Of a stretch of 64,000 bases of DNA, positions 40,268 to 49,621 are shown one piece after another. The notes below the pieces were generated by a model. The model had not been told where the DNA came from. It saw only the letters and a program-made list of their open reading frames with translations, and ran no database searches. Source of the DNA: a bacterium HR35 (GTDB lineage Bacteria > Patescibacteriota > Minisyncoccia > UBA6257 > HR35). How positions within the stretch are numbered: the stretch's first letter is position 1; each line of letters begins with the position of its first letter. The translations under genes and the position numbers were made by a program. The stretch spans positions 16,034 to 80,033 of the forward strand of contig BEIL01000001.1 of NCBI GenBank assembly GCA_002898235.1. Reading direction: 5' to 3'.

Positions 40268-40311
40268 TAGTAATTCAATAGTAATACAATAGTAATACAG
40301 TAGTAATCAAA
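40268..40311. repeat. 11 bp tandem repeat, four copies (TAGTAAT[T/A]CA[A/G])
   Basis: tagtaattcaa tagtaatacaa tagtaatacag tagtaatcaaaa, directly after the tktN stop. Confidence 0.8.
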
Positions 40312-40342: not shown

Positions 40343-41632
40343 ATGAGTTGGCTTATGGAAAAAAAGTATATTTTGATAGTATTATTTTTGCTTTTCTTGG
40401 GGCTAGTTTTAATTAAGCAAACAAAAATTAGAGCAGAAATCGCTTATTTTTATCCTCAAAGTTGTTTAGGAAGTTTTATTAATCCTGAAAAAGCCCAAGG
40501 AAAGCCCGAAGTTGATAATCCTGATTTAATAAATGAATCAAATTCTGCTGTTTATTTAGGCGGTTTTAAAGAAATTTATTGTGGAAATTTTCAAGGACCA
40601 GAAGTACAAGGCGAAATAAAGAAAATAACATTACATTTTAATTGGATTGTTACTAAAGAAAGGAGAGAAGCAGTTCTAACTGAACCAACCTCAACAAACG
40701 ATTCAAATATTTTAGAAAAAATTATTCCTCCGAAAACAATAGAAATAATACCAGCAACTCCAACAACTGAAACAGCACCTTTACCAAATACCACTCCAAC
40801 ACCAGAAGCAACCTCGACACCTCAGTCATCTTTTAACACGGATTCACGCGGATTATTATTACACGGATATACACGGAAATTATTTAACCTAGATAAAAAT
40901 TATCTAGATATCTTATTTTGGTGGAAAACAACTTTTGCTGAAGAAATGGCAACACCAATAGAATCGACAACACCTACAACCTTAACAACAACTCCATCAG
41001 AAGCTCAAAATCAATCAACTGAAACTCAATCAATAATAATTACAACAACTCCTACATCTACAGAAAATCAAACCGAAACAACCTCTTCTACTACAAGTAC
41101 TGAAGCATTGACTACTCCAACAACCTCAGAAACAACTTCATTAACAACCTCAACTCCTCCTAAAACTCTATTTGAAGTCCATTACACTTTGGATGGTGAA
41201 AATTGGACTTATCTTGGAGATATTAAAACGCAGACTAACGCAGACAACACGCAGACTAACGCAGACAACTATTTTATTCCCGATGTTTCTTTTGAAATAC
41301 CAGTAAATAATTGGCTTGATATTTCAAAAATTCAAATAAAAATCAATTCTTTACCTGATACTGACTACTATCTTTATTTAGAATCAATGTGGTTTGAAGT
41401 TGAATATGAACTTCCGCAAGCAACATCAACTATTTCAGAAATAACAAATTTTGTTGGTGGCACTATAAGTTCTTTAACAGAAAATTTTTCTAATGATACT
41501 TCTACATTGTCAGAAACCTCAACATCTTATGGCGAAGATGATGAAGAAATTTTAACTCCAACAAATTTAGAAAATGCTACTCCTACTCCTCATTACCTCC
41601 TCTTAAACAAAGAAAATATACTAAAGAAATAA
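40343..41632 (+). CDS. secreted Thr/Ser/Pro-rich (mucin-like) surface protein
   Basis: N-terminal signal anchor and long T/S/P low-complexity linkers. Contains in-frame short repeats (40836-40878 and 41228-41269). Confidence 0.4.
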   Translation: MSWLMEKKYILIVLFLLFLGLVLIKQTKIRAEIAYFYPQSCLGSFINPEKAQGKPEVDNPDLINESNSAVYLGGFKEIYCGNFQGPEVQGEIKKITLHFNWIVTKERREAVLTEPTSTNDSNILEKIIPPKTIEIIPATPTTETAPLPNTTPTPEATSTPQSSFNTDSRGLLLHGYTRKLFNLDKNYLDILFWWKTTFAEEMATPIESTTPTTLTTTPSEAQNQSTETQSIIITTTPTSTENQTETTSSTTSTEALTTPTTSETTSLTTSTPPKTLFEVHYTLDGENWTYLGDIKTQTNADNTQTNADNYFIPDVSFEIPVNNWLDISKIQIKINSLPDTDYYLYLESMWFEVEYELPQATSTISEITNFVGGTISSLTENFSNDTSTLSETSTSYGEDDEEILTPTNLENATPTPHYLLLNKENILKK

Positions 41633-41988
41633 AAATTCAAAATCCTGACAATATTTCTTGTAAAATAGAGCCATTTTCAATTGAAGTTAAAGAAGAAGAA
41701 ACAAAAACAGCCAATTTAATAATTTCAGCAAATAACACAAAAAACATTGAAATCGGAAGCTTGCCTTCAGGAATAGACATTCAATTAGAAAATAATAATT
41801 ACGAAATGCAAACATCAAATAATTCAATTCAACTAAAAATATATCGTCAACAAGGTTCAGACAAAGGCAACTTCAATATTCCAATAATCCTTTCCTCAGG
41901 CAATTCAACAATAATTTGTCAAATGAATATCATAGCATTTTAGTAGCTAGTAGCTAGTAATTAGTATCTAGTAGCTAGTAGTAGTAAG

Positions 41989-42336
41989 ATGAAAACAAAA
42001 TCTTTTAAGGAATTAATAGTTTGGCAAAGAGCAAAAGAATTAGCAATAGAAGTATATAAATTAACATCAAAATTTCCAAAGTCAGAGCTTTTTGGATTAA
42101 CAAACCAAATGAGAAGAGCTTCAATTTCTATTTCTTCAAATATTGCTGAAAGTTATCATCGCTTCCATTCTAAAGAGAAAAAACAATTTTTAGCAGTTGC
42201 CTTTGGCTCTGGAGCAGAATTAGAAAGCCAAATTGAAATTGCTAAATCACTTTTTCCAAATTTAGATTATTCAAAAGTAGAAACATTACTTGCAGATATA
42301 ATGAAAATTTTAAATAAAATTATTAATAAAAAATGA
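41989..42336 (+). CDS. four-helix-bundle protein of the 23S rRNA intervening-sequence protein / Avd family
   Basis: WQRAKELAIEVYKLTSKFPKSELFGLTNQMRRASISISSNIAEG is the characteristic motif of this family. The stop overlaps the next start (ATGA). Confidence 0.7.
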   Translation: MKTKSFKELIVWQRAKELAIEVYKLTSKFPKSELFGLTNQMRRASISISSNIAESYHRFHSKEKKQFLAVAFGSGAELESQIEIAKSLFPNLDYSKVETLLADIMKILNKIINKK

Positions 42337-45300
42337 AAAAAAATCATCCAAAATTATCTACTAGATTCTACTTACTATCTACTAGATTCTTAGTTTTATT
42401 ACTTTTAATTTCAATGTTCTTTTTCGGTTATCCTGTTATTTGGAAAAATCCAAGAATACCACCAAAGATTAAGGAAGCACAGGCGGCAATTAGTTTTATT
42501 GGAAGCGTTGAAGGATCAGCAGCAAACGGCGGCGATGTCACGCTTAGCCTTTCCGGTCTTGGACTCCAAGAAGGCGACCTCGTCATCGTGGCCTATGCCA
42601 TTGGAGATAATGATAACGTGAATTTCAACATGGCAATACTATCGCCAGCTGGTTATACCGAGGTTGCCGACTTACATTCCGATGATACACAAGATGTTGA
42701 TCTCGGTGTTTACTGGAAAGTTATGGGAGCCACACCAGACACATCTGTTACGGTAGATGGTTTAGGAGGAACTGATGCTTCAGTGGCAGCAGTGGCAATG
42801 GCTTTCCGGGGTGTTGATCCCGCAACTCCAATGGATGTGATTCCAACTACGGCAACTGGCATTAATACTATGCATCCCAATCCCCCAGCAATAGACTATG
42901 TAAGCACCGGTGTCTGGACAGTTATTGCGGGAGCAAGTGGGCATGCGCTTAATTTAGCTAATACTAACAATCCCTATACTTTCCCATCAGGATATACAAC
43001 AGATAATGTTCAACGACCTGAAAATGATACAAGCGATGTGACAGTTGGATTGGGATACAGAACAAATCCCGCTGATCCCGAGGATCCTGGCGTTATGACA
43101 CACAGCGGAACTGACAGCACAAGTTACTCGTGGGCTGCAGTTACAATTGCTTTAAGACCCAAACCACCTTCTACTTTTAATCAATCAGCTTATAGATTTT
43201 TTAATAATCTTGATTCAACTGATGTTGGTTCTCCTTTAGCCAATCAAAATACTCCAGCAAGCTTAACTTCAGCTGGTCAAGCATTTAGATTGAGATTACT
43301 TATTCATGTAGGAACATCAAATCTGTTGGAAAATGAACAAAGTTTCAAACTTCAATTTGGTACCTCTACTGGTTCATCTTGTACTTCTTCACCACCTGCT
43401 TCTTGGGCTGATGTTACAACTTCAACACCAATAGCTTTTAATGACAACCCAACACCAGCTGATGGTGCTACTTTAACTGCTAATACTAATGACCCAACTC
43501 ATGGAGCTGATATTATTGTCAATCAAACCTATGAAGAATTAAATAATTTTACAAACTCTGTCTCTTCAATTAACGCTGGCGAAGATGGTAAATGGGACTT
43601 TTCATTAAAAGATAATGGTGCTCCAGCTGGTACTACTTATTGTTTAAGAGTTGTAAAAGCTGATGGAACTTTATTAGATACTTATTCAGTTATTCCTCAA
43701 ATTACAACCGCCGCAGCTCCAATTTTATCAGCTTATAGATTTTTTAATAATTTAGATTCAACTGATGTTGGTTCTCCTTTAGCTAATCAAGATACAGCTG
43801 CAACTTTAACTTCAGCTGGTCAAGCTTTTAGATTAAGACTTTTACTTCATTTACCCTCGGGTTTAAATTTCAATTCTCCCACTTCTTCAAATAATTTAAT
43901 AGAATCTGGATTAATTCCAGCTGGCTCTGGTGGTGGTAGAATTAGAATAGCTGCGCCTACTCCCAATAGATTATACTTGGTTTATTATGATATGACTAAT
44001 CTAGATTTAAGATTCTGTCGAAGTACTAATGGTGGAGTGAGTTGGAGTTGTAATGCAATTGAATCGACTGGTGATGTAGGCGTAACTCCGGATATTTATG
44101 CTCTTGATGAAAACAATATATTTATTACTCATAGAGATGCAACAAATGGTAATTTAAGATTTTGTAAAAGTAGTAATGGTGGTTTAAATTTTTCTTGTTC
44201 TATTCTTGAAGCTGGTTGGCAGGGGTTTGATTCTTCTATTAAAGCTATTTCAACTTCAACAATTTTTGTTTCTTACGCTCCAGCTCCAGCAAATTTTAGC
44301 TATTCAATTTTGAGATTTTGCCGAACAACTGATGGTGGTAACACCTGGAATTGCTCAGATGTTGAAGGAAATACAACAACTCAATATGGTTGGTATTCAT
44401 CTTTAGATGCAGTTGATTCTAATAATATTTATATTGCCCACTATGATGGGATCAATTTAGATTTAAGATTTTGTCGGACTTCAAACGGTGGAACAACTTG
44501 GAATTGTGGTGTAATTGAAACTACAGGTGATATAGGAAGAAAACCATCTATAAAAGCTTTTAACAATAATTATATTTATATAGCACATCGAGACGAAACA
44601 AATAATCAATTAAGATTTTGTCGAACTACAGATGGAGGAACTAGTTGGAATTGTAATGCAATAGAAATCGGAGGTTTTTCTTCTTCTTTAAAAATAGTTG
44701 ATAAAGATGTAGTTTATATAGCCCATTTTGATTTTACAAATGCTTCTATAAGACTTTGTAATACTAATAATGGTGGACAAACTTGGAGCTGTTCTACAAT
44801 TGCTAATGCTCCCCCTACTCTTACTTCTGGTGAAAATTTAAGTCTTTCTTTAGATTTACTTGATCCTTATATGATTTATGTAGCTTATGGTTTTACTACT
44901 GATTCTTCTAATGAGGTAAGATTGTATAAATATACAGGGAATGATTTTTTTAAACTTCAATATTCAGTTATGTCTGGAACTTGTGATACTTCATTTTCTG
45001 GTGAAGTTTATAATGATGTAGGTTTCGATACCCCTATTGCTTTTTATAATAATAACACTACAAGTGATGCCTCGACTCCAACTACTAACACCAATGATCC
45101 AACTCATGGTACTGATACAATTGTTTATCAAACTTATAAAGAAAAAAAATTTTTTACAAATAGAACGAACATTTTTTCGGGAAGTGATGGTTTATGGGAT
45201 TTTGTTTTGAGAGATAATAACGCTCCTTCAAATACAACTTATTGTTTAAGAGTTGTAAAAGCAGATGGAAGCTTACTTCAGGGTTACAATGTTATCCCTC

Positions 45301-45797
45301 AAATTACAACTGCAGCAGCTGCACCGATTACTTGTACTTTTTCAGCAACTTCAACTTCATTTTCAAGTTTATCTCCTTCAGCTGTTTCAACTTCTTCTCC
45401 TGATATAACTATTACTGTTACTTCTTCAGCTGGTTTTATAATTTCTGTAAATGATGCAGGTAATGGAACTAACCCAGGTCTTTATAAATCAACCTCGCCA
45501 ACATATCTAATTCCTTCTCCAAATTCTTCTTATACAGCAACTGCTACTTTAGTGGCTGGGGTAGATGGTTATGGAATTCAAGCAACAACTACAAATTCAA
45601 ATATAAGTATTAATCCAAGATACAATGTTAGTGGAGATACTGTTGGAGGACTAACTACAACAACTATTACTTTGGCAAGTTCTTCAGTTGCTGTTTCTTC
45701 GGCTCAAATTACAATTAAACATAAAGCAGCAGTTTCAAGTTTAGCACCAACAGGCAATTATCAAGATACAATAACATATAGCTGTACAAGTCCATAG
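42333..45797 (+). CDS. large surface protein with N-terminal signal anchor, a compositionally atypical N-terminal domain, duplicated YRFFNNLDSTDVGSPLANQ segments, a BNR/Asp-box beta-propeller and a C-terminal domain shared with the next gene
   Basis: Six BNR-like blades (LRFCRSTNGGVSWSC, LRFCKSSNGGLNFSC, LRFCRTTDGGNTWNC, LRFCRTSNGGTTWNC, LRFCRTTDGGTSWNC, IRLCNTNNGGQTWSC). 1154 aa. Confidence 0.55.
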   Translation: MKKNHPKLSTRFYLLSTRFLVLLLLISMFFFGYPVIWKNPRIPPKIKEAQAAISFIGSVEGSAANGGDVTLSLSGLGLQEGDLVIVAYAIGDNDNVNFNMAILSPAGYTEVADLHSDDTQDVDLGVYWKVMGATPDTSVTVDGLGGTDASVAAVAMAFRGVDPATPMDVIPTTATGINTMHPNPPAIDYVSTGVWTVIAGASGHALNLANTNNPYTFPSGYTTDNVQRPENDTSDVTVGLGYRTNPADPEDPGVMTHSGTDSTSYSWAAVTIALRPKPPSTFNQSAYRFFNNLDSTDVGSPLANQNTPASLTSAGQAFRLRLLIHVGTSNLLENEQSFKLQFGTSTGSSCTSSPPASWADVTTSTPIAFNDNPTPADGATLTANTNDPTHGADIIVNQTYEELNNFTNSVSSINAGEDGKWDFSLKDNGAPAGTTYCLRVVKADGTLLDTYSVIPQITTAAAPILSAYRFFNNLDSTDVGSPLANQDTAATLTSAGQAFRLRLLLHLPSGLNFNSPTSSNNLIESGLIPAGSGGGRIRIAAPTPNRLYLVYYDMTNLDLRFCRSTNGGVSWSCNAIESTGDVGVTPDIYALDENNIFITHRDATNGNLRFCKSSNGGLNFSCSILEAGWQGFDSSIKAISTSTIFVSYAPAPANFSYSILRFCRTTDGGNTWNCSDVEGNTTTQYGWYSSLDAVDSNNIYIAHYDGINLDLRFCRTSNGGTTWNCGVIETTGDIGRKPSIKAFNNNYIYIAHRDETNNQLRFCRTTDGGTSWNCNAIEIGGFSSSLKIVDKDVVYIAHFDFTNASIRLCNTNNGGQTWSCSTIANAPPTLTSGENLSLSLDLLDPYMIYVAYGFTTDSSNEVRLYKYTGNDFFKLQYSVMSGTCDTSFSGEVYNDVGFDTPIAFYNNNTTSDASTPTTNTNDPTHGTDTIVYQTYKEKKFFTNRTNIFSGSDGLWDFVLRDNNAPSNTTYCLRVVKADGSLLQGYNVIPQITTAAAAPITCTFSATSTSFSSLSPSAVSTSSPDITITVTSSAGFIISVNDAGNGTNPGLYKSTSPTYLIPSPNSSYTATATLVAGVDGYGIQATTTNSNISINPRYNVSGDTVGGLTTTTITLASSSVAVSSAQITIKHKAAVSSLAPTGNYQDTITYSCTSP

Positions 45798-45957
45798 TTA
45801 GTAGCTAGTAATTAGTAATTAGTAACTAATAGTAATGCAATAAAAAAATTTTTTTGACAAAATATGATATAATTTTAGTAAAATAAGCTCGCCCTGTAGT
45901 GAAACGAATTTTCTACTACAGGGGTAGAAGGGTCGAAAATTAAATAAAAAAAATCAA

Positions 45958-46593
45958 ATGGAAAAGGAAAATCAAACACAAAATTTAATTCTTTTGATAG
46001 GCATATTTTTAACTATTTATTTTGTTTATGAACTTTTTATTCTACCATCAGGACTTTTAAGAGCACAAACTAATGTGACGGTTACAGCAACCGTAACAAC
46101 AACTGTAACTTGTAATCCTGCAACAACTACTACTAATTTTGGCACTATTGATGCAAGTGCTGTTTATACTTCTTCTCCTAATGTAATTACCACTGTTTCT
46201 TGTAATCCTGCAGCAGGATGTAATGTTACTATTAGGGATCAAGGTTCAGGAACTCAACCAGGTTTATGGAATTCAACAGCTTCTTATCTAATTCCTTCAC
46301 CAAATGCTTCTTTTTCAGCAACAGCAACTTTAGTAGCTGGAACAGAAGGTTATGGAATTCAAGCAACAACAACTTCAGCTGGCTCAGGAGGAACTCTTTC
46401 TTTAAATTCAAGATATGTTCAAACAGGAAATACTGTCGGAGGATTGACAACAACCACAATTCAATTAGCTTCTTCAACCGAGCCAGTAGCAAATAGAGAA
46501 ATTGTTGTTACTCATAAAGTAGCAATCTCAGGTTTAACCAGAGCAGGTAATTATCAAGACATAATTACATATAGCTGTGCAAGTAATTTTTAG
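45958..46593 (+). CDS. secreted paralog of the C-terminal domain of the preceding 1154 aa protein
   Basis: Signal anchor. About 60% aa identity to the last roughly 170 aa of ORF 42333-45797 (shared PGLWNST..YLIPSPN..ATATLVAG..GYGIQATTT..TVGGLTTTTI..GNYQDxITYSC). Confidence 0.45.
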   Translation: MEKENQTQNLILLIGIFLTIYFVYELFILPSGLLRAQTNVTVTATVTTTVTCNPATTTTNFGTIDASAVYTSSPNVITTVSCNPAAGCNVTIRDQGSGTQPGLWNSTASYLIPSPNASFSATATLVAGTEGYGIQATTTSAGSGGTLSLNSRYVQTGNTVGGLTTTTIQLASSTEPVANREIVVTHKVAISGLTRAGNYQDIITYSCASNF

Positions 46594-46655
46594 TATCTAG
46601 TAGTTAGAATTTAGTAAATAGCAATGAATCAAAAAAGTAAAGAAAAAAATTAAAA

Positions 46656-47534
46656 ATGAAAAAATATCTCTTATTTATTTTTTTACTAGCTTCTATTTTA
46701 TATTTACTAGTTACTAATTCTGTTTTTGCTTTAACTGTTGGACCTGCTAAATTAGAATTTACAACTGATCCGGGGCAAGTTTTAGAATTTAGTTTGTTTG
46801 TTAGAAATGATAGTGATTATGATTCTAAGTATCAAATTATTGTTGAAGGGTTTACTGAAGAAAATGGAGAAAGAAAATATATTACCAATCCGCCTGAAGC
46901 AAGTTGGGTTGAAGCACCAAAGGATATTTTTATTAAAGCCAAAGAAGATACAAATGTTCCTATAAAAATTAATGTTCCTAAAGATGCTCCGCCAGGAGGT
47001 CATTTTTTAGTTTTATGGGTAAGCACTAAACCTGAGGGAGGTCAGGTTGCAATTGTTACCAGAGTTGGAGCTTTAGTTTTTATTAATGTTTCAGGAAAGG
47101 CTATTTATAAGGCTTATATTAGTGAGCTAAAAGCACCAAAAATTGCTTTTGATTTTCCAGTAAAATTTTCTTATGTAATCAAAAATGAAGGCAACACCTA
47201 TATAACACCTAAAGGCAATATTGAAATTAAAAATATTTTCGGAAGATTAATTGCTGATTTGCCTATAAATCCAAGGGAATTACAGCTTTTACCCAATACC
47301 TCAAAAAATTTTGAACAAGAATGGAAAGCACCGTTTGCTTTTGGAATTTATAAAGCTATTTTTAATTTAGAATATGCCAATTCAAGAAACTCTTTGAATT
47401 ATTGGTTTGTTTTTATTCATCTTAAAGCATTAATTATTTTGATGATTATCTTTGTTTTTGTTGTTTTTGTTTTACCAAGATTAATTAAAAAATATAATGA
47501 ATGGGTAATTAAAAGATATATGCAAAATAAATGA
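46656..47534 (+). CDS. secreted beta-sandwich protein with C-terminal TM anchor
   Basis: Signal peptide, predicted beta-rich ectodomain, C-terminal hydrophobic helix followed by basic residues (LPRLIKKYNEW). Confidence 0.35.
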   Translation: MKKYLLFIFLLASILYLLVTNSVFALTVGPAKLEFTTDPGQVLEFSLFVRNDSDYDSKYQIIVEGFTEENGERKYITNPPEASWVEAPKDIFIKAKEDTNVPIKINVPKDAPPGGHFLVLWVSTKPEGGQVAIVTRVGALVFINVSGKAIYKAYISELKAPKIAFDFPVKFSYVIKNEGNTYITPKGNIEIKNIFGRLIADLPINPRELQLLPNTSKNFEQEWKAPFAFGIYKAIFNLEYANSRNSLNYWFVFIHLKALIILMIIFVFVVFVLPRLIKKYNEWVIKRYMQNK

Positions 47535-48584: not shown

Positions 48585-48800
48585 ATGTTTCGCGAGTTGG
48601 CTTTTATATATCGCACACACGCCTATGAGCACCGGCACTCAACTTCCTCCAGCGGCAAGTTGGTGCCTCGTGGTCTCGGCTCAAAAACTTTGCCATCTGC
48701 TGAAAGCAGACTGGCAAAGACCAAGCTTTTTAAGCCTCCGACACGTGCTCTACGGCGTGGTGCTCGACAAAATGTCTGCGTCAGTCTGCGTTTTATACAA
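48585..48800. other. 220 bp GC-rich (about 50% GC) intergenic element with internal inverted repeats
   Basis: Sharp composition jump versus flanks. Hairpin potential in GGCACTCAACTT...AAGTTGGTGCC and GCAGACTG...CAGTCTGC. Ends with GTCTGCGTCAGTCTGCGTT, the reverse complement of the ACGCAGAC motif seen in in-frame insertions elsewhere. Confidence 0.5.
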
Positions 48801-48802
48801 AA

Positions 48803-49621
48803 ATGGCAAAAATTTATTTACAAATAGATAAGGAAGTGAATACTAATTATTTCACAGTTCCTATTTATCTTGACACCGAAGGTGAATCAGTTAATGCTTT
48901 TGAAGTGAAGATAAAAACATCTAACAATTTGATTTTTAGAGATTATTTAGAAAAAGATTCAATTATTAGTTATTGGATTGAAAAACCTTCAATTAAAGAA
49001 AATATTTTGTCATTTTCAGGAATTACTCCAGGTGGTTATATTGGTAAAAAGGGTTTGTTGGTAAATTTAATTTTTGAAGCTAAACAAAACGGACAAGCTT
49101 TTATTGAAATTTTACCTTCATCACAAATTTTACTAAACGATGGTTTAGGAACTAAGGCAGGATTAAAAACAGATAGATATGAATTTTTGTTAAATATTAC
49201 TCAAACTCAAAAAATAAGCATTGAAGACCGTTATCCTCCAGAACCATTTAAAATTTATCCTCAAAGAAATAAGGAAATTTTTAACAATAAGTATTACATT
49301 ATTTTTGAGGCTAAAGATAAACAATCAGGTATAGCTTATTATGAAGCTGCTGAAGTTCCTATCTGTATAAATCTAGGTTTAACCTGCGAAAATCCTCGTT
49401 TTGAAAAAGTCTCATCTCCATATCTTTTAAAAGATCAATCTTTAAGAAGCTATATTTATGTTAAAGCAGTTGATCGAGCAGGAAATGAAAGAATTGAAAT
49501 TTTAAAACCACAAAGATTGTTTTTAGCTGAAGAAATTTTGTTTTTCTTTATTTTTAGTAGTTTGTTTATTTTAGGAATCATTTTTTATAATAAAATTAAA
49601 TGGCATTTAAGAATAAAATAA
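48803..49621 (+). CDS. cohesin-like domain protein with C-terminal TM anchor; N-terminal signal peptide apparently missing
   Basis: Cohesin-like N-domain aligns with that of the next gene (AKIYLQIDKEVNTNYFTVPIYLDT vs ASIYLSPAQKTVNVGDSFSIVVYVES, then LVNLIFEAKQNGQAFIEIL...LLNDGLG). An Ig-like ...SGIAYY...VDRAGN domain. The ORF begins exactly at the mature-domain boundary, immediately after the GC-rich element. Confidence 0.45.
   Translation: MAKIYLQIDKEVNTNYFTVPIYLDTEGESVNAFEVKIKTSNNLIFRDYLEKDSIISYWIEKPSIKENILSFSGITPGGYIGKKGLLVNLIFEAKQNGQAFIEILPSSQILLNDGLGTKAGLKTDRYEFLLNITQTQKISIEDRYPPEPFKIYPQRNKEIFNNKYYIIFEAKDKQSGIAYYEAAEVPICINLGLTCENPRFEKVSSPYLLKDQSLRSYIYVKAVDRAGNERIEILKPQRLFLAEEILFFFIFSSLFILGIIFYNKIKWHLRIK

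What the first reader, a model, noticed from the sequence alone, without database searches (positions are those of the whole stretch)
41989..42336. Avd/IVS-family four-helix-bundle gene translationally coupled to a large variable surface protein, but no reverse transcriptase or template repeat in the window
This family includes the accessory variability determinant of diversity-generating retroelements, which are common in CPR. Here it overlaps the start of a surface protein whose C-terminal domain has a diverged paralog next door. However, the internal repeats at 43183-43310 versus 43730-43860 differ at all base types, not adenine-specific as a DGR would produce, and no RT gene is present. 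This is either a standalone IVS-type protein or a remnant or partner of a DGR located outside the window.
Basis: partly seen in the sequence, partly recalled or inferred. Interest (0 to 1): 0.5.

Follow-up and report, generated by a model that had tools for sequence, protein, structure and literature searches.

The report
IVS-type hairpin gene cassette, not DGR
The small four-helix-bundle gene is not part of a diversity-generating retroelement. It sits in the loop of a long hairpin built from inverted arrays of 7-base repeats, wedged exactly between two genes. This is the same design as the intervening sequences of ribosomal RNA, and it recurs around this protein family across many bacterial phyla.

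Summary
The ORF 41989-42336 is real and is a clear PF05635/TIGR02436 four-helix-bundle (S23p/IVS) protein. It falls below the Avd model cut-offs. The window holds no reverse transcriptase motif, and its repeats show no adenine-biased mismatches, so a DGR role is unsupported.

The gene is bracketed by inverted arrays of about five 7-nt units (41941-41988 and 42355-42390). The 5' array starts at the upstream gene's stop codon. The 3' array encodes residues 8-20 of the 1154-aa surface protein, whose ATG overlaps the 4HB stop.

All 39 close homologues tested have the same layout. So do distant ones with different heptamers:
- Xanthomonas, between accB and accC, with GGGAATC
- Azospirillum, inside 23S rRNA
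- Coxiella, from the literature

Only period 7 is enriched in the flanks. A sister genome carries the cassette at another junction of the same cluster, where the window keeps a lone array.

The best reading is an IVS-type hairpin cassette co-transcribed with a surface-protein operon. I infer that the conserved, basic protein, presumably a pentamer, binds the heptamer arrays. This is a new variant of a known kind. The mechanism is inferred, not shown.

The parts
40343..41943 (+). Upstream gene, homologue of the 508-aa protein of L001. It is split by a 1-nt frameshift in this assembly, and its stop codon TAG 41941-41943 is the first TAG of the 5' array.
   Evidence: tblastn matches two frames, 40343..41593 and 41599..41940. 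An independent assembly of the same sample has one extra T near 41586 and a 529-aa intact gene.
41941..41988 (+). 5' arm: six-plus tandem heptamers (TAGTAGC TAGTAGC TAGTAAT TAGTATC TAGTAGC TAGTAGT AGTAAG) running from the upstream stop codon to the 4HB start codon.
   Evidence: Arm 41942-41977 pairs with 42355-42390 at 83%.
41989..42336 (+). Four-helix-bundle (S23p / 23S rRNA IVS protein family) gene, 115 aa, pI 9.8. It is the cargo in the loop of the hairpin.
   Evidence: PF05635 E=8.7e-32 and TIGR02436 110 bits. 2GSC E=3.4e-16. dN about 0.2 with dS saturated, dN/dS about 0.1 across relatives.
42333..42335 (+). Start codon of the large surface protein. It overlaps the 4HB stop (ATGA) and lies inside the loop.
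   Evidence: It is the only in-frame start that keeps the conserved transmembrane segment. Eleven of 36 related cassettes have the same ATGA overlap.
42355..42390 (+). 3' arm: the inverted heptamer array (reverse complement TAGAATC TAGTAGA TAGTAAG ...). It is translated as residues 8-20 (KLSTRFYLLSTRF) of the surface protein.
   Evidence: The arms-only fold is -30.9 kcal/mol, z=-3.3. The cassette-free orthologue in L038 has an unrelated N-terminal segment before the same TM helix.
42333..45797 (+). 1154-aa membrane-anchored surface protein with six BNR-like repeats, internal duplications and a C-terminal pilin-like domain.
45799..45834 (+). Lone 5-unit heptamer array directly after the surface-protein stop. 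The sister genome L038 carries a whole (decayed) cassette at this site.
   Evidence: No inverted partner was found.
45958..46593 (+). Pilin-like paralogue of the surface protein's C-terminal domain.
   Evidence: 54% identity, E=2e-46. There is a weak NF058581 CPR_Pam_pilin_C hit, 19 bits against a cut-off of 55.
46591..46709 (+). ORF-less mini version. A 5-unit array (46591-46625) begins at the pilin stop codon. The start codon of the next gene (46656) lies in the loop. A degenerate inverted partner (46682-46709, 71% complementary) lies in that gene's signal-peptide coding region.
   Evidence: Clearer ORF-less hairpins occur in L012, L014, L030 and L038.

Best explanation
The gene is the cargo of an IVS-type hairpin cassette inserted at a junction between two co-directional genes of a CPR surface-protein/pilus-like operon. 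It is not a DGR accessory gene.

Shown:
- Anatomy: upstream stop codon | about 5-6 tandem heptamers | 4HB ORF | the same heptamers inverted | downstream start region.
- The two arrays are complementary in mirrored unit order.
- The layout is conserved around this protein family while the heptamer sequence changes between lineages.
- The layout is identical in a copy that lies inside a 23S rRNA gene.
- The protein is under strong purifying selection and is basic.
- The 3' arm is translated as the N-terminal segment, or the signal-peptide core, of the downstream secreted protein.

Inferred:
- The cassette has no promoter of its own and is transcribed with the host operon.
- In the RNA the arms pair into a stem of about 35 bp. 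The stem brings the upstream stop and the downstream start region together and isolates the insert.
- As in rRNA IVSs, the stem is a likely RNase III substrate. Because the start codon or early codons of the next gene lie in or next to it, the stem also gates that gene's translation.
- The 4HB protein (a homopentameric ring in its solved relative) binds the arrays of about five heptamers, one unit per subunit. That binding would control whether the stem forms.
- Cassettes decay to ORF-less hairpins and lone arrays, both of which are present in this window.
For: Window anatomy.

Family membership.

Architecture in relatives:
- All 39 CPR homologues (at least 55% identity) with complete flanks have inverted flanking arrays. 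The mean IR score is 41, against 16 for flanks of 228 other small ORFs in the same loci (Mann-Whitney p=4e-23), and every case exceeds the control 95th percentile.
- Arm length has a median of 34 nt, and the modal array has 5 units.
- Among periods 4-11, only period 7 is enriched: 70% of 70 genes against 4.7% of 447 controls.

Placement: in 33 of 35 cases the 5' arm begins -23 to +15 nt from an upstream same-strand stop. In 35 of 36 cases a same-strand ORF starts in the loop (16) or 3-15 nt after the 3' arm (19).

Covariation:
- Own-locus arm pairing scores 26-60 (31-60 in all but one of 13 lineages), against 10-27 between unrelated lineages with different heptamers.
- Two paralogues 3 kb apart in one genome use TCACATA and TAGAAAG.
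- Unit order is mirrored: observed score 44.4 against 35.3 after permuting units, p=2e-9.

Same design elsewhere:
- Xanthomonas, between the accB stop and the accC start, with GGGAATC.
- Azospirillum, inside 23S rRNA.
- Coxiella IVS: a 28-bp stem, RNase III excision and tandem heptamers GACAGAT (PMC4990558).

Mobility or decay: the sister genome L038 has a pseudogenised cassette at a different junction of the same cluster, where the window has a lone array. ORF-less hairpins exist.

Protein: dN/dS is about 0.1 with dS saturated, and pI is 9.2-9.8. The relative 2GSC is described as a homopentameric toroid (PMC4990558).
Against: - Mismatches in the arms show no preference for G:U (43) over A:C (44). 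So nothing marks the stem as selected specifically in the plus-strand RNA; a DNA-level hairpin or concerted evolution of the arms would fit as well.
- The full 486-nt RNA folds only marginally better than shuffles (z=-1.55), although the arms do pair in the MFE and centroid structures.
- In the window, RNase III cleavage of the stem would cut the surface-protein mRNA between its start codon and codon 20. Simple 'excision' cannot therefore be harmless here.
- One homologue (Pseudanabaena, between cas6 and cas4) has long heptamer arrays in direct orientation, not inverted. The arrays, rather than the stem, may be the essential feature.
- No experiment or transcriptome was available.
- Protein-heptamer binding and the 5-unit/pentamer match are inference only.
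- No transposase and no target-site duplication were identified.
Confidence: 0.6

Rival explanations
1. Domesticated trans-acting regulator. The heptamer-array hairpins are host regulatory elements placed at the start regions of secreted, pilin and adhesin genes. The 4HB protein is their dedicated binding factor, encoded within one of its own target hairpins and therefore autoregulated. Under this reading the cassette is not a selfish insertion.
For: - ORF-less hairpins with the next gene's ATG in the loop and the 3' arm translated as a prepilin leader or signal peptide occur in L030, L038 and weakly at window 46591-46709.
- Thirteen of 16 'start-in-loop' neighbours belong to one cohesin-like secreted family that is also present in this window.
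- The arm sequence consensus (TAG[A/T]A..) is kept although synonymous sites are saturated.
- Xanthomonas has about 186 GGGAATC arrays, 70 of them as inverted pairs, and its 4HB gene is flanked by that same heptamer (PMC4692102).
- Precedent: the H. influenzae hmw1A heptamer-repeat 5'-UTR hairpin is processed by RNase III and controls an adhesin (PMC12721329).
Against: - Cassettes also sit next to housekeeping genes with no secretion link: EF-G, accBC, SOD, thioredoxin reductase, tRNA genes and rRNA.
- Pseudogenised copies and presence/absence differences between sister genomes look like an element rather than a fixed regulator.
- No binding data exist.
Confidence: 0.2
2. DNA-level mobile element. 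The inverted arrays are terminal inverted repeats of a small transposable or recombination-driven cassette (MITE-like when ORF-less). The 4HB protein is its mobility or maintenance factor, and any RNA stem is incidental.
For: - G:U equals A:C among arm mismatches.
- The cassette sits at different junctions in sister genomes, and the conserved unit runs exactly from arm to arm.
- Some genomes carry several copies.
- ORF-less derivatives and lone arrays exist.
- IVP ORFs are scattered over several rRNA insertion sites in CPR and over cas operons.
- The idea that the IVS ORF serves mobility is old (Ralph and McClelland 1993, as cited in PMC4990558).
Against: - The protein has no recognisable nuclease or recombinase domain.
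- dS is saturated between copies, so there is no sign of recent spread.
- Placement is precise with respect to stop and start codons and always co-directional with the neighbours. That points to function or selection at the transcript level.
Confidence: 0.13
3. Remnant or partner of a diversity-generating retroelement (an Avd whose RT and TR lie outside the window) that diversifies the adjacent surface protein.
For: PF05635 is the superfamily that contains Avd. There are weak sub-threshold hits to bAvd and NF033474. DGRs are common in CPR (general knowledge).
Against: - The protein scores below both Avd cut-offs.
- There is no YxDD in the window, and no RT-like ORF within 5 kb of about 70 homologues.
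- Repeat mismatches are not A-specific and fall mostly at codon positions 1 and 3.
- The cassette architecture is shared with copies in rRNA and in housekeeping operons.
Confidence: 0.04
4. Contingency locus. Slippage of the heptamer repeats in the leader-coding 3' arm or in the 5' array switches the surface protein on and off (phase variation). The 4HB gene would be a passenger.
For: Seven-nt units in a coding leader would shift the frame. Heptamer number varies between Coxiella strains. The H. influenzae hmw heptamer SSR is phase-variable.
Against: - Units are heterogeneous, with a 21-nt in-frame super-period in the window, which disfavours slippage.
- Four assemblies of one population from different samples are 100% identical across both arms.
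- An independent assembly of this very sample has identical arms.
Confidence: 0.03

Closest known systems
23S rRNA intervening sequences (IVS) carrying an S23p ORF (Coxiella burnetii, Leptospira, Brucella, Xanthomonas; here also Azospirillum lipoferum plasmid AZO_p2)
   Same: - A homologous PF05635 ORF lies in the loop.
- Terminal inverted repeats form a stem of about 28-45 bp.
- Tandem heptamers lie next to the start codon (GACAGAT in Coxiella, CAGAGGA/CGGATGA in Azospirillum).
- There is no good Shine-Dalgarno sequence.
- The sense strand is co-transcribed with the host gene.

   Different: - The host site is a junction between protein-coding genes, not helix 25 or 45 of 23S rRNA.
- The 3' arm is translated as part of the downstream protein.
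- The protein is under strong purifying selection here, whereas the Coxiella ORF is reported as decaying and probably untranslated.
- RNase III excision is untested, and in this setting it would cut a coding region.
Avd, the accessory variability determinant of diversity-generating retroelements (NF033474, PF22296)
   Same: Same four-helix-bundle superfamily. Both are small and basic, and a pentameric ring is expected. Avd is a nucleic-acid/RT-binding scaffold (my own knowledge of the Bordetella phage system).
   Different: - The protein scores below both Avd model cut-offs.
- There is no RT, and no TR/VR pair with adenine-specific differences.
- The gene is flanked by heptamer arrays, which are not a described DGR feature.

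Genome-wide heptanucleotide tandem repeats: GGGAATC in Xanthomonas and GGGGA(C/T)T (STRR-type) in Anabaena/Nostoc (Rehm et al. 2015, PMC4692102)
   Same: These are arrays of imperfect 7-nt units, mostly intergenic and often in convergent inverted pairs. They are transcribed and conserved in position between species. The Xanthomonas 4HB gene is flanked by exactly this GGGAATC repeat.
   Different: The paper treats the repeats as G-quadruplex-forming DNA, and its main text never mentions S23p/4HB. The CPR units (TAGAAAA, TAGTAGC) are A/T-rich and cannot form G4. Here the arrays bracket a gene.
hmw1A 5'-UTR heptamer-repeat hairpin of Haemophilus influenzae (PMC12721329)
   Same: A tandem 7-nt array forms one arm of a long hairpin upstream of a surface adhesin gene, is processed by RNase III and controls expression.
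   Different: The right arm there is a G-rich region, not an inverted array. No gene lies in the loop and no 4HB protein is involved. That array is a perfect SSR with phase variation, which is not seen here.
23S_rRNA_IVP genes noted inside cas operons and in CPR rRNA insertions
   Same: The same family is found wedged between operon genes (for example cmr3 and cmr2, or cas6 and cas4) and in 16S and 23S insertions of CPR.
   Different: Those reports treat the gene as a possible cas-associated function or as an rRNA insertion ORF. The passages read do not describe flanking heptamer arrays or the stop/start-abutting hairpin.

Membership tests
PF05635 / TIGR02436 four-helix-bundle (S23p, 23S rRNA IVS protein) | Sequence matches the family HMMs above the curated cut-offs | tested here: met
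   PF05635 scores 110 bits against 33.8, and TIGR02436 scores 110.6 against 24.
PF05635 / TIGR02436 four-helix-bundle (S23p, 23S rRNA IVS protein) | Four-helix bundle assembling into a homopentameric ring | not tested
   There is only sequence similarity to the pentameric 2GSC chain (E=3.4e-16 over residues 7-88). No structure prediction or oligomer test was run.
DGR accessory protein Avd | Matches the Avd-specific models above cut-off | tested here: not met
   NF033474 scores 24.3 bits against 80, and PF22296 scores 27 against 40.
DGR accessory protein Avd | Adjacent reverse transcriptase gene | tested here: not met
   No YxDD in the six frames of the 64-kb window. No RT-like ORF in 712 kb of related loci.
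DGR accessory protein Avd | TR/VR repeat pair with adenine-specific mismatches in a target gene | tested here: not met
   Five repeat pairs in 42333-46600 have mismatches at all bases.
DGR accessory protein Avd | RT or TR elsewhere in the same genome | not testable with these tools
   Only 64 kb of the 247,965-bp contig is available.
rRNA intervening sequence (IVS) element | S23p ORF enclosed by terminal inverted repeats that form a long stem | tested here: met
   The arms are 36 nt and 83% complementary, and they pair in the MFE and centroid folds. The same holds in all 39 close homologues tested.
rRNA intervening sequence (IVS) element | Tandem heptamers adjoining the ORF (reported for Coxiella) | tested here: met
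   Six-plus units lie upstream and 4-5 inverted units downstream. Enrichment is specific to period 7.
rRNA intervening sequence (IVS) element | Inserted in helix 25 or 45 of 23S rRNA | tested here: not met
   Both flanks are protein-coding genes. Rfam finds only tRNAs in the window.
rRNA intervening sequence (IVS) element | Excised from the transcript by RNase III | not testable with these tools
   No transcript data are available. Strand-specific wobble analysis was neutral: G:U 43 against A:C 44.
Phase-variable simple-sequence-repeat contingency locus | Near-perfect tandem units whose number varies between close isolates | tested here: not met
   Units are heterogeneous. Arms are identical in an independent assembly of the same sample and in four assemblies of a related population.
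IS / MITE-type transposable element | Terminal inverted repeats plus a transposase (autonomous), or TIRs plus target-site duplication (MITE) | tested here: inconclusive
   TIR-like arms are present, and a presence/absence difference with L038 is seen. No transposase-like domain was found. Target-site duplications were not examined systematically.

The most novel reading that the evidence does not exclude
S23p/four-helix-bundle proteins are the cognate partners of bacterial heptanucleotide tandem arrays in general. Each pentameric ring would recognise about five copies of its own lineage-specific 7-mer, in RNA or single-stranded DNA. The gene sits between two arrays of its own target, and the many ORF-less arrays in the same genome are its further targets or its decayed copies. 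Those arrays include CPR TAGAAAA-type hairpins at pilin and adhesin start sites, the roughly 186 GGGAATC arrays of Xanthomonas, and perhaps cyanobacterial STRRs. This would give a function to two long-unexplained features at once, the IVS ORF and the heptamer repeats. It would also suggest where the DGR protein Avd came from.
Probability: 0.3. Interest if true: 0.85.

Novelty: new variant of a known kind. Interest (0 to 1): 0.62.

Why it matters
The IVS ORF (S23p) has had no known function since the early 1990s. Heptanucleotide arrays in Xanthomonas, cyanobacteria and other bacteria are equally unexplained.

This window and about 70 related loci show that the two go together as one unit: inverted 7-mer arrays around a strongly conserved, basic, presumably pentameric protein. 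The unit appears in rRNA, tRNA operons, housekeeping operons, cas operons and CPR surface-protein clusters.

That turns a vague annotation ('four helix bundle protein') into a testable hypothesis of RNA-protein recognition and of insertion that the host operon tolerates. It also warns annotators on three points:
- Such genes next to variable surface proteins in CPR are not evidence for a DGR.
- IVP genes inside cas operons may be junction insertions rather than cas components.
- The N-terminal signal sequences of many CPR secreted proteins are encoded by one arm of these hairpins.

Tried and rejected
- Strand-specific wobble test. G:U (43) against A:C (44) mismatches in 39 arm pairs gave no RNA-versus-DNA signal.
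- Shine-Dalgarno analysis. SD-like motifs are rare even in control genes (12%), so their absence at cassette-adjacent starts (0 of 35) says little.
- Promoter and terminator consensus scans of 39.3-49.0 kb. Hits were no more frequent than in shuffles, so transcription units cannot be read from them.
- PADLOC defence models gave no hit.
- Rfam on the window found only tRNAs, with nothing for the arms or the GC-rich island.
- Phase variation. No unit-number polymorphism was seen.
- More GGGAATC arrays in the four 6-kb Xanthomonas loci. None was found beyond the pair flanking the gene, so the genome-wide figure rests on the published count.
- The repeat at 40268-40305 first looked like a fourth array. 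It has an 11-nt period and was dropped.
- Recent horizontal spread as an explanation for 70-78% identity across CPR classes. This was rejected because synonymous sites are saturated.
- The whole-cassette RNA fold is not significantly more stable than shuffles (z=-1.55). Only the arms-only construct is.

Full report
**The observation**

The window is 28.5% G+C and comes from 'bacterium HR35', locus tag HRbin35_00060, on a contig of 247,965 bp. ORF 41989..42336 (+, 115 aa) is real. It matches PF05635 (23S_rRNA_IVP) at E=8.7e-32 and TIGR02436 'four helix bundle protein' at 110 bits. It falls below the cut-offs of both Avd-specific models: NF033474 scores 24 bits against 80, and PF22296 scores 27 against 40. 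The only solved structure found by sequence is 2GSC (Xanthomonas XCC0516, E=3.4e-16). The Coxiella IVS paper describes that protein as a homopentameric toroid of four-helix bundles (PMC4990558).

The TGA of the ORF overlaps the ATG of ORF 42333..45797 (1154 aa) as ATGA.
- No Y-x-D-D motif occurs in any frame of the window.
- The repeats 43184-43310 and 43727-43853 exist at 87% identity. Their mismatches are spread over all bases, as in four other repeat pairs.
- The C-terminal domain of the large protein is 54% identical to the next gene.

The gene is bracketed by inverted repeats, 41942-41977 and 42355-42390, of 36 nt and 83% complementarity. Each arm is a tandem array of heptamers. The 5' arm reads TAGTAGC TAGTAGC TAGTAAT TAGTATC TAGTAGC TAGTAGT and runs from 41941 to the start codon. 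The 3' arm is the inverted equivalent. The motif has 7 matches in the window against 0 in 100 shuffles. The arms pair in the MFE and centroid folds of the whole cassette. An arms-only construct folds at -30.9 kcal/mol, z=-3.3.

The first TAG of the 5' array (41941-41943) is the stop codon of the upstream gene. That gene looks frameshifted in this assembly. An independent assembly of the same sample has one more T near 41586 and an intact 529-aa gene.

The 3' arm lies inside the large ORF and encodes residues 8-20 (KLSTRFYLLSTRF). No other in-frame start would keep the conserved transmembrane helix, so the arm is translated.

**Is this a property of the family?**

I collected 7 loci by exact-protein look-up and 68 by a genome scan. 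All 39 homologues of at least 55% identity with complete flanks have inverted flanking arrays.
- Their IR score averages 41.1. The flanks of 228 other 80-200-aa ORFs from the same loci average 16.3. Every 4HB case exceeds the control 95th percentile (Mann-Whitney p=4e-23).
- The median arm is 34 nt. The modal number of TAG units at exact 7-nt spacing is five on both sides.
- When periods 4 to 11 are scanned, only period 7 is enriched: 70% of 70 genes against 4.7% of 447 controls. Both flanks are positive in 59% against 0.9%. A few high-GC members use period 8.

Placement is precise.
- In 33 of 35 cases the 5' arm begins -23 to +15 nt from the stop of an upstream same-strand ORF.
- In 35 of 36 cases a same-strand ORF follows. 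It starts either inside the loop (16 cases, 11 with the same ATGA overlap) or 3-15 nt after the 3' arm (19 cases).
- When the next ORF starts in the loop, the 3' arm encodes the hydrophobic core of a Sec signal peptide (for example ..FSIFYFLFS..AxA). Thirteen of these 16 neighbours belong to one cohesin-like secreted family that is also present in the window at 48803..49621.

**Covariation**

Distant members keep the design with other heptamers:
- TCACATA in a second paralogue 3 kb from a TAGAAAG copy in the same genome
- GTGAACA in Fervidobacterium
- AGACTTT in a Brocadiaceae genome
- CCAGAAG in a Phycisphaerae genome
- GCAGTAA in Chryseobacterium
- GTTCGAG, ACATTTG and others

In a 13 x 13 matrix, a 5' flank pairs with its own 3' flank at scores of 26-60 (31-60 in all but one locus). 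It pairs with flanks of unrelated lineages at background scores of 10-27. Within arms the order of variant units is mirrored: the observed score is 44.4, against 35.3 after permuting units (Wilcoxon p=2e-9). So the arrays are true palindromes, not merely two arrays of one motif.

The test that could have tied the stem to RNA was neutral: arm mismatches are G:U 43 times and A:C 44 times. One exception to the inverted layout was seen. A Pseudanabaena plasmid copy between cas6 and cas4 has long arrays in direct orientation.

**Links to known systems**

1. A homologue on Azospirillum lipoferum plasmid AZO_p2 lies inside a 23S rRNA gene (Rfam LSU, 1032 bits). It has inverted heptamer arms CAGAGGA/CGGATGA. 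A bona fide rRNA IVS therefore has the same anatomy.
2. The Coxiella IVS has a 28-bp stem, is excised by RNase III, and carries two or three tandem GACAGAT heptamers before the S23p start codon (PMC4990558).
3. In Xanthomonas, the homologue of the crystallised protein sits between the accB stop and the accC start. It is flanked by GGGAATC GGGAGTG GAGAATC GGGAATC and its inverse: 30 nt, 87% complementary, with an arms-only fold of -43.5 kcal/mol, z=-7. GGGAATC is the heptamer repeat that Rehm et al. counted about 186 times per Xanthomonas genome, 70 of them as inverted pairs. They studied it as a G-quadruplex former, and their main text does not mention this protein (PMC4692102).
4. 23S_rRNA_IVP ORFs have been noted in CPR rRNA insertions and wedged inside cas operons.

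In the held library I found no paper that connects the protein family with flanking heptamer arrays beyond the Coxiella description. Literature outside that library could not be checked.

**Evolution**

The protein is strongly constrained. Across 26 CPR copies dN is about 0.2 while dS is saturated, giving dN/dS of about 0.1. The pI is 9.2-9.8. It is therefore made and functional, and the 70-78% identity across CPR classes is not due to recent transfer. The arm consensus (TAG[A/T]A..) is also kept at this divergence, which argues for selection on the heptamer sequence itself.

The cassette is nevertheless not fixed in place. The syntenic relative L001 has it at the same junction as the window. 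In the sister genome L038 (Parcubacteria KatS3mg094), a copy 91% identical over residues 1-88, but carrying an in-frame stop and an indel, lies between the stop of the large protein and the pilin promoter. The L038 large protein has no cassette upstream and has an unrelated N-terminal segment before the homologous TM helix. At that pilin-proximal site the window has only a lone five-unit array (45799-45834).

ORF-less hairpins (5' array, short loop holding the next gene's ATG, inverted array translated as leader or signal peptide) occur in L012, L014, L030 and L038. A weak one occurs in the window at 46591-46709.

**Interpretation**

The DGR reading is rejected as far as these data reach.

The best-supported reading is an IVS-type hairpin cassette at an operon junction. 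I infer, but have not shown, four things:
- It is co-transcribed with its neighbours.
- The RNA stem juxtaposes the upstream stop and the downstream start region.
- The stem is a substrate for RNase III or a gate for translation of the next gene.
- The presumably pentameric protein binds the array of about five units.

In this window, cleavage within the stem would separate the surface protein's start codon from the rest of its mRNA. The stem is therefore more likely a control point than a harmless excision signal. The H. influenzae hmw1A heptamer-repeat hairpin, which is cut by RNase III and controls an adhesin, is a useful functional precedent.

Three rivals remain: a domesticated trans-acting regulator of such hairpins, a DNA-level mobile element, and phase variation. 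Phase variation is disfavoured by heterogeneous units and by the absence of unit-number variants.

**Verdict**

The finding as written is ordinary: a PF05635 gene without a DGR. The structure around the gene is not ordinary. It is a new variant of the IVS kind. It points to a general, testable association between S23p-family proteins and heptanucleotide arrays.

Noticed in passing
window 48585-48800: A GC-rich island (49-54% G+C against 28% for the window) holds only short overlapping ORFs. It lies between the dockerin/Big_6 gene and the cohesin-like gene. It folds far better than shuffles on both strands (-83 kcal/mol, z=-5.6, and -89 kcal/mol, z=-5.5). It has no Rfam match and no copy in the fetched loci. 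It occupies the position, upstream of a cohesin-like gene, where other CPR genomes carry the 4HB cassette, and the cohesin-like ORF here lacks the usual signal peptide. It may be an unannotated structured RNA or a foreign insert.
   Followed up: partly
window 41586-41600: There is a one-base difference between this assembly and an independent assembly of the same sample (CTCCTCATT against CTCCTTCATT). In the window it splits the upstream 529-aa gene into two frames, so it is an assembly error or a population variant.
   Followed up: yes
window 45846-45925; L038 5465-5545: The pilin-like gene is preceded by an extended -10-like TGATATAAT and then a conserved hairpin (CCCTGTAGT...ACTACAGGG) in its 5' leader. 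Both are kept in the sister genome although the cassette is inserted just upstream there.
   Followed up: no
window 40268-40305: A tandem repeat with an 11-nt period (ATAGTAATACA, about 3.5 copies) follows directly after the transketolase-N gene stop. It resembles the heptamer arrays in composition (TAGTAA) but not in period.
   Followed up: no
L030 6766-6880 and 7858-7990: In a CPR type IV pilin operon, the prepilin leader peptides (MNKILDSRFQILDSRRG|FTLMETL and MKNLKTTSIFYFLDSRFSNKG|FTLIEVV) are encoded by inverted heptamer arrays. These arrays are complementary to arrays placed right after the preceding stop codon, so the start codon sits in a hairpin loop.
   Followed up: partly
L072 2600-3200: In a Latescibacterota contig the 4HB cassette, with TAGCAAA-type arms, appears to lie between two tRNA genes, judged by eye from tRNA-like sequence on both sides. 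That would be a stable-RNA operon other than rRNA.
   Followed up: no
L085 (Pseudanabaena galeata plasmid pPg_01, 45565-47225): A 4HB gene between cas6 and cas4 is flanked by very long direct arrays, not inverted ones: (AAAAGCT)x14 upstream and (AAAAGCC)x12 downstream. This is the only clear exception to the inverted layout.
   Followed up: partly
window 44007-44804: The large surface protein holds six copies of a unit of about 50 aa (LRFCR[TS]xxGGxxWxC, spacing 138-156 nt) with a weak BNR_2 match. The same protein has two further internal duplications of about 130 nt, 1.6 kb apart.
   Followed up: no
arms-only folds (window, L001, L076): Mismatches in the predicted stems recur every 7 nt, giving 5-6 paired bases and then 1-2 unpaired. 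The stems are therefore regularly interrupted helices rather than plain duplexes.
   Followed up: no
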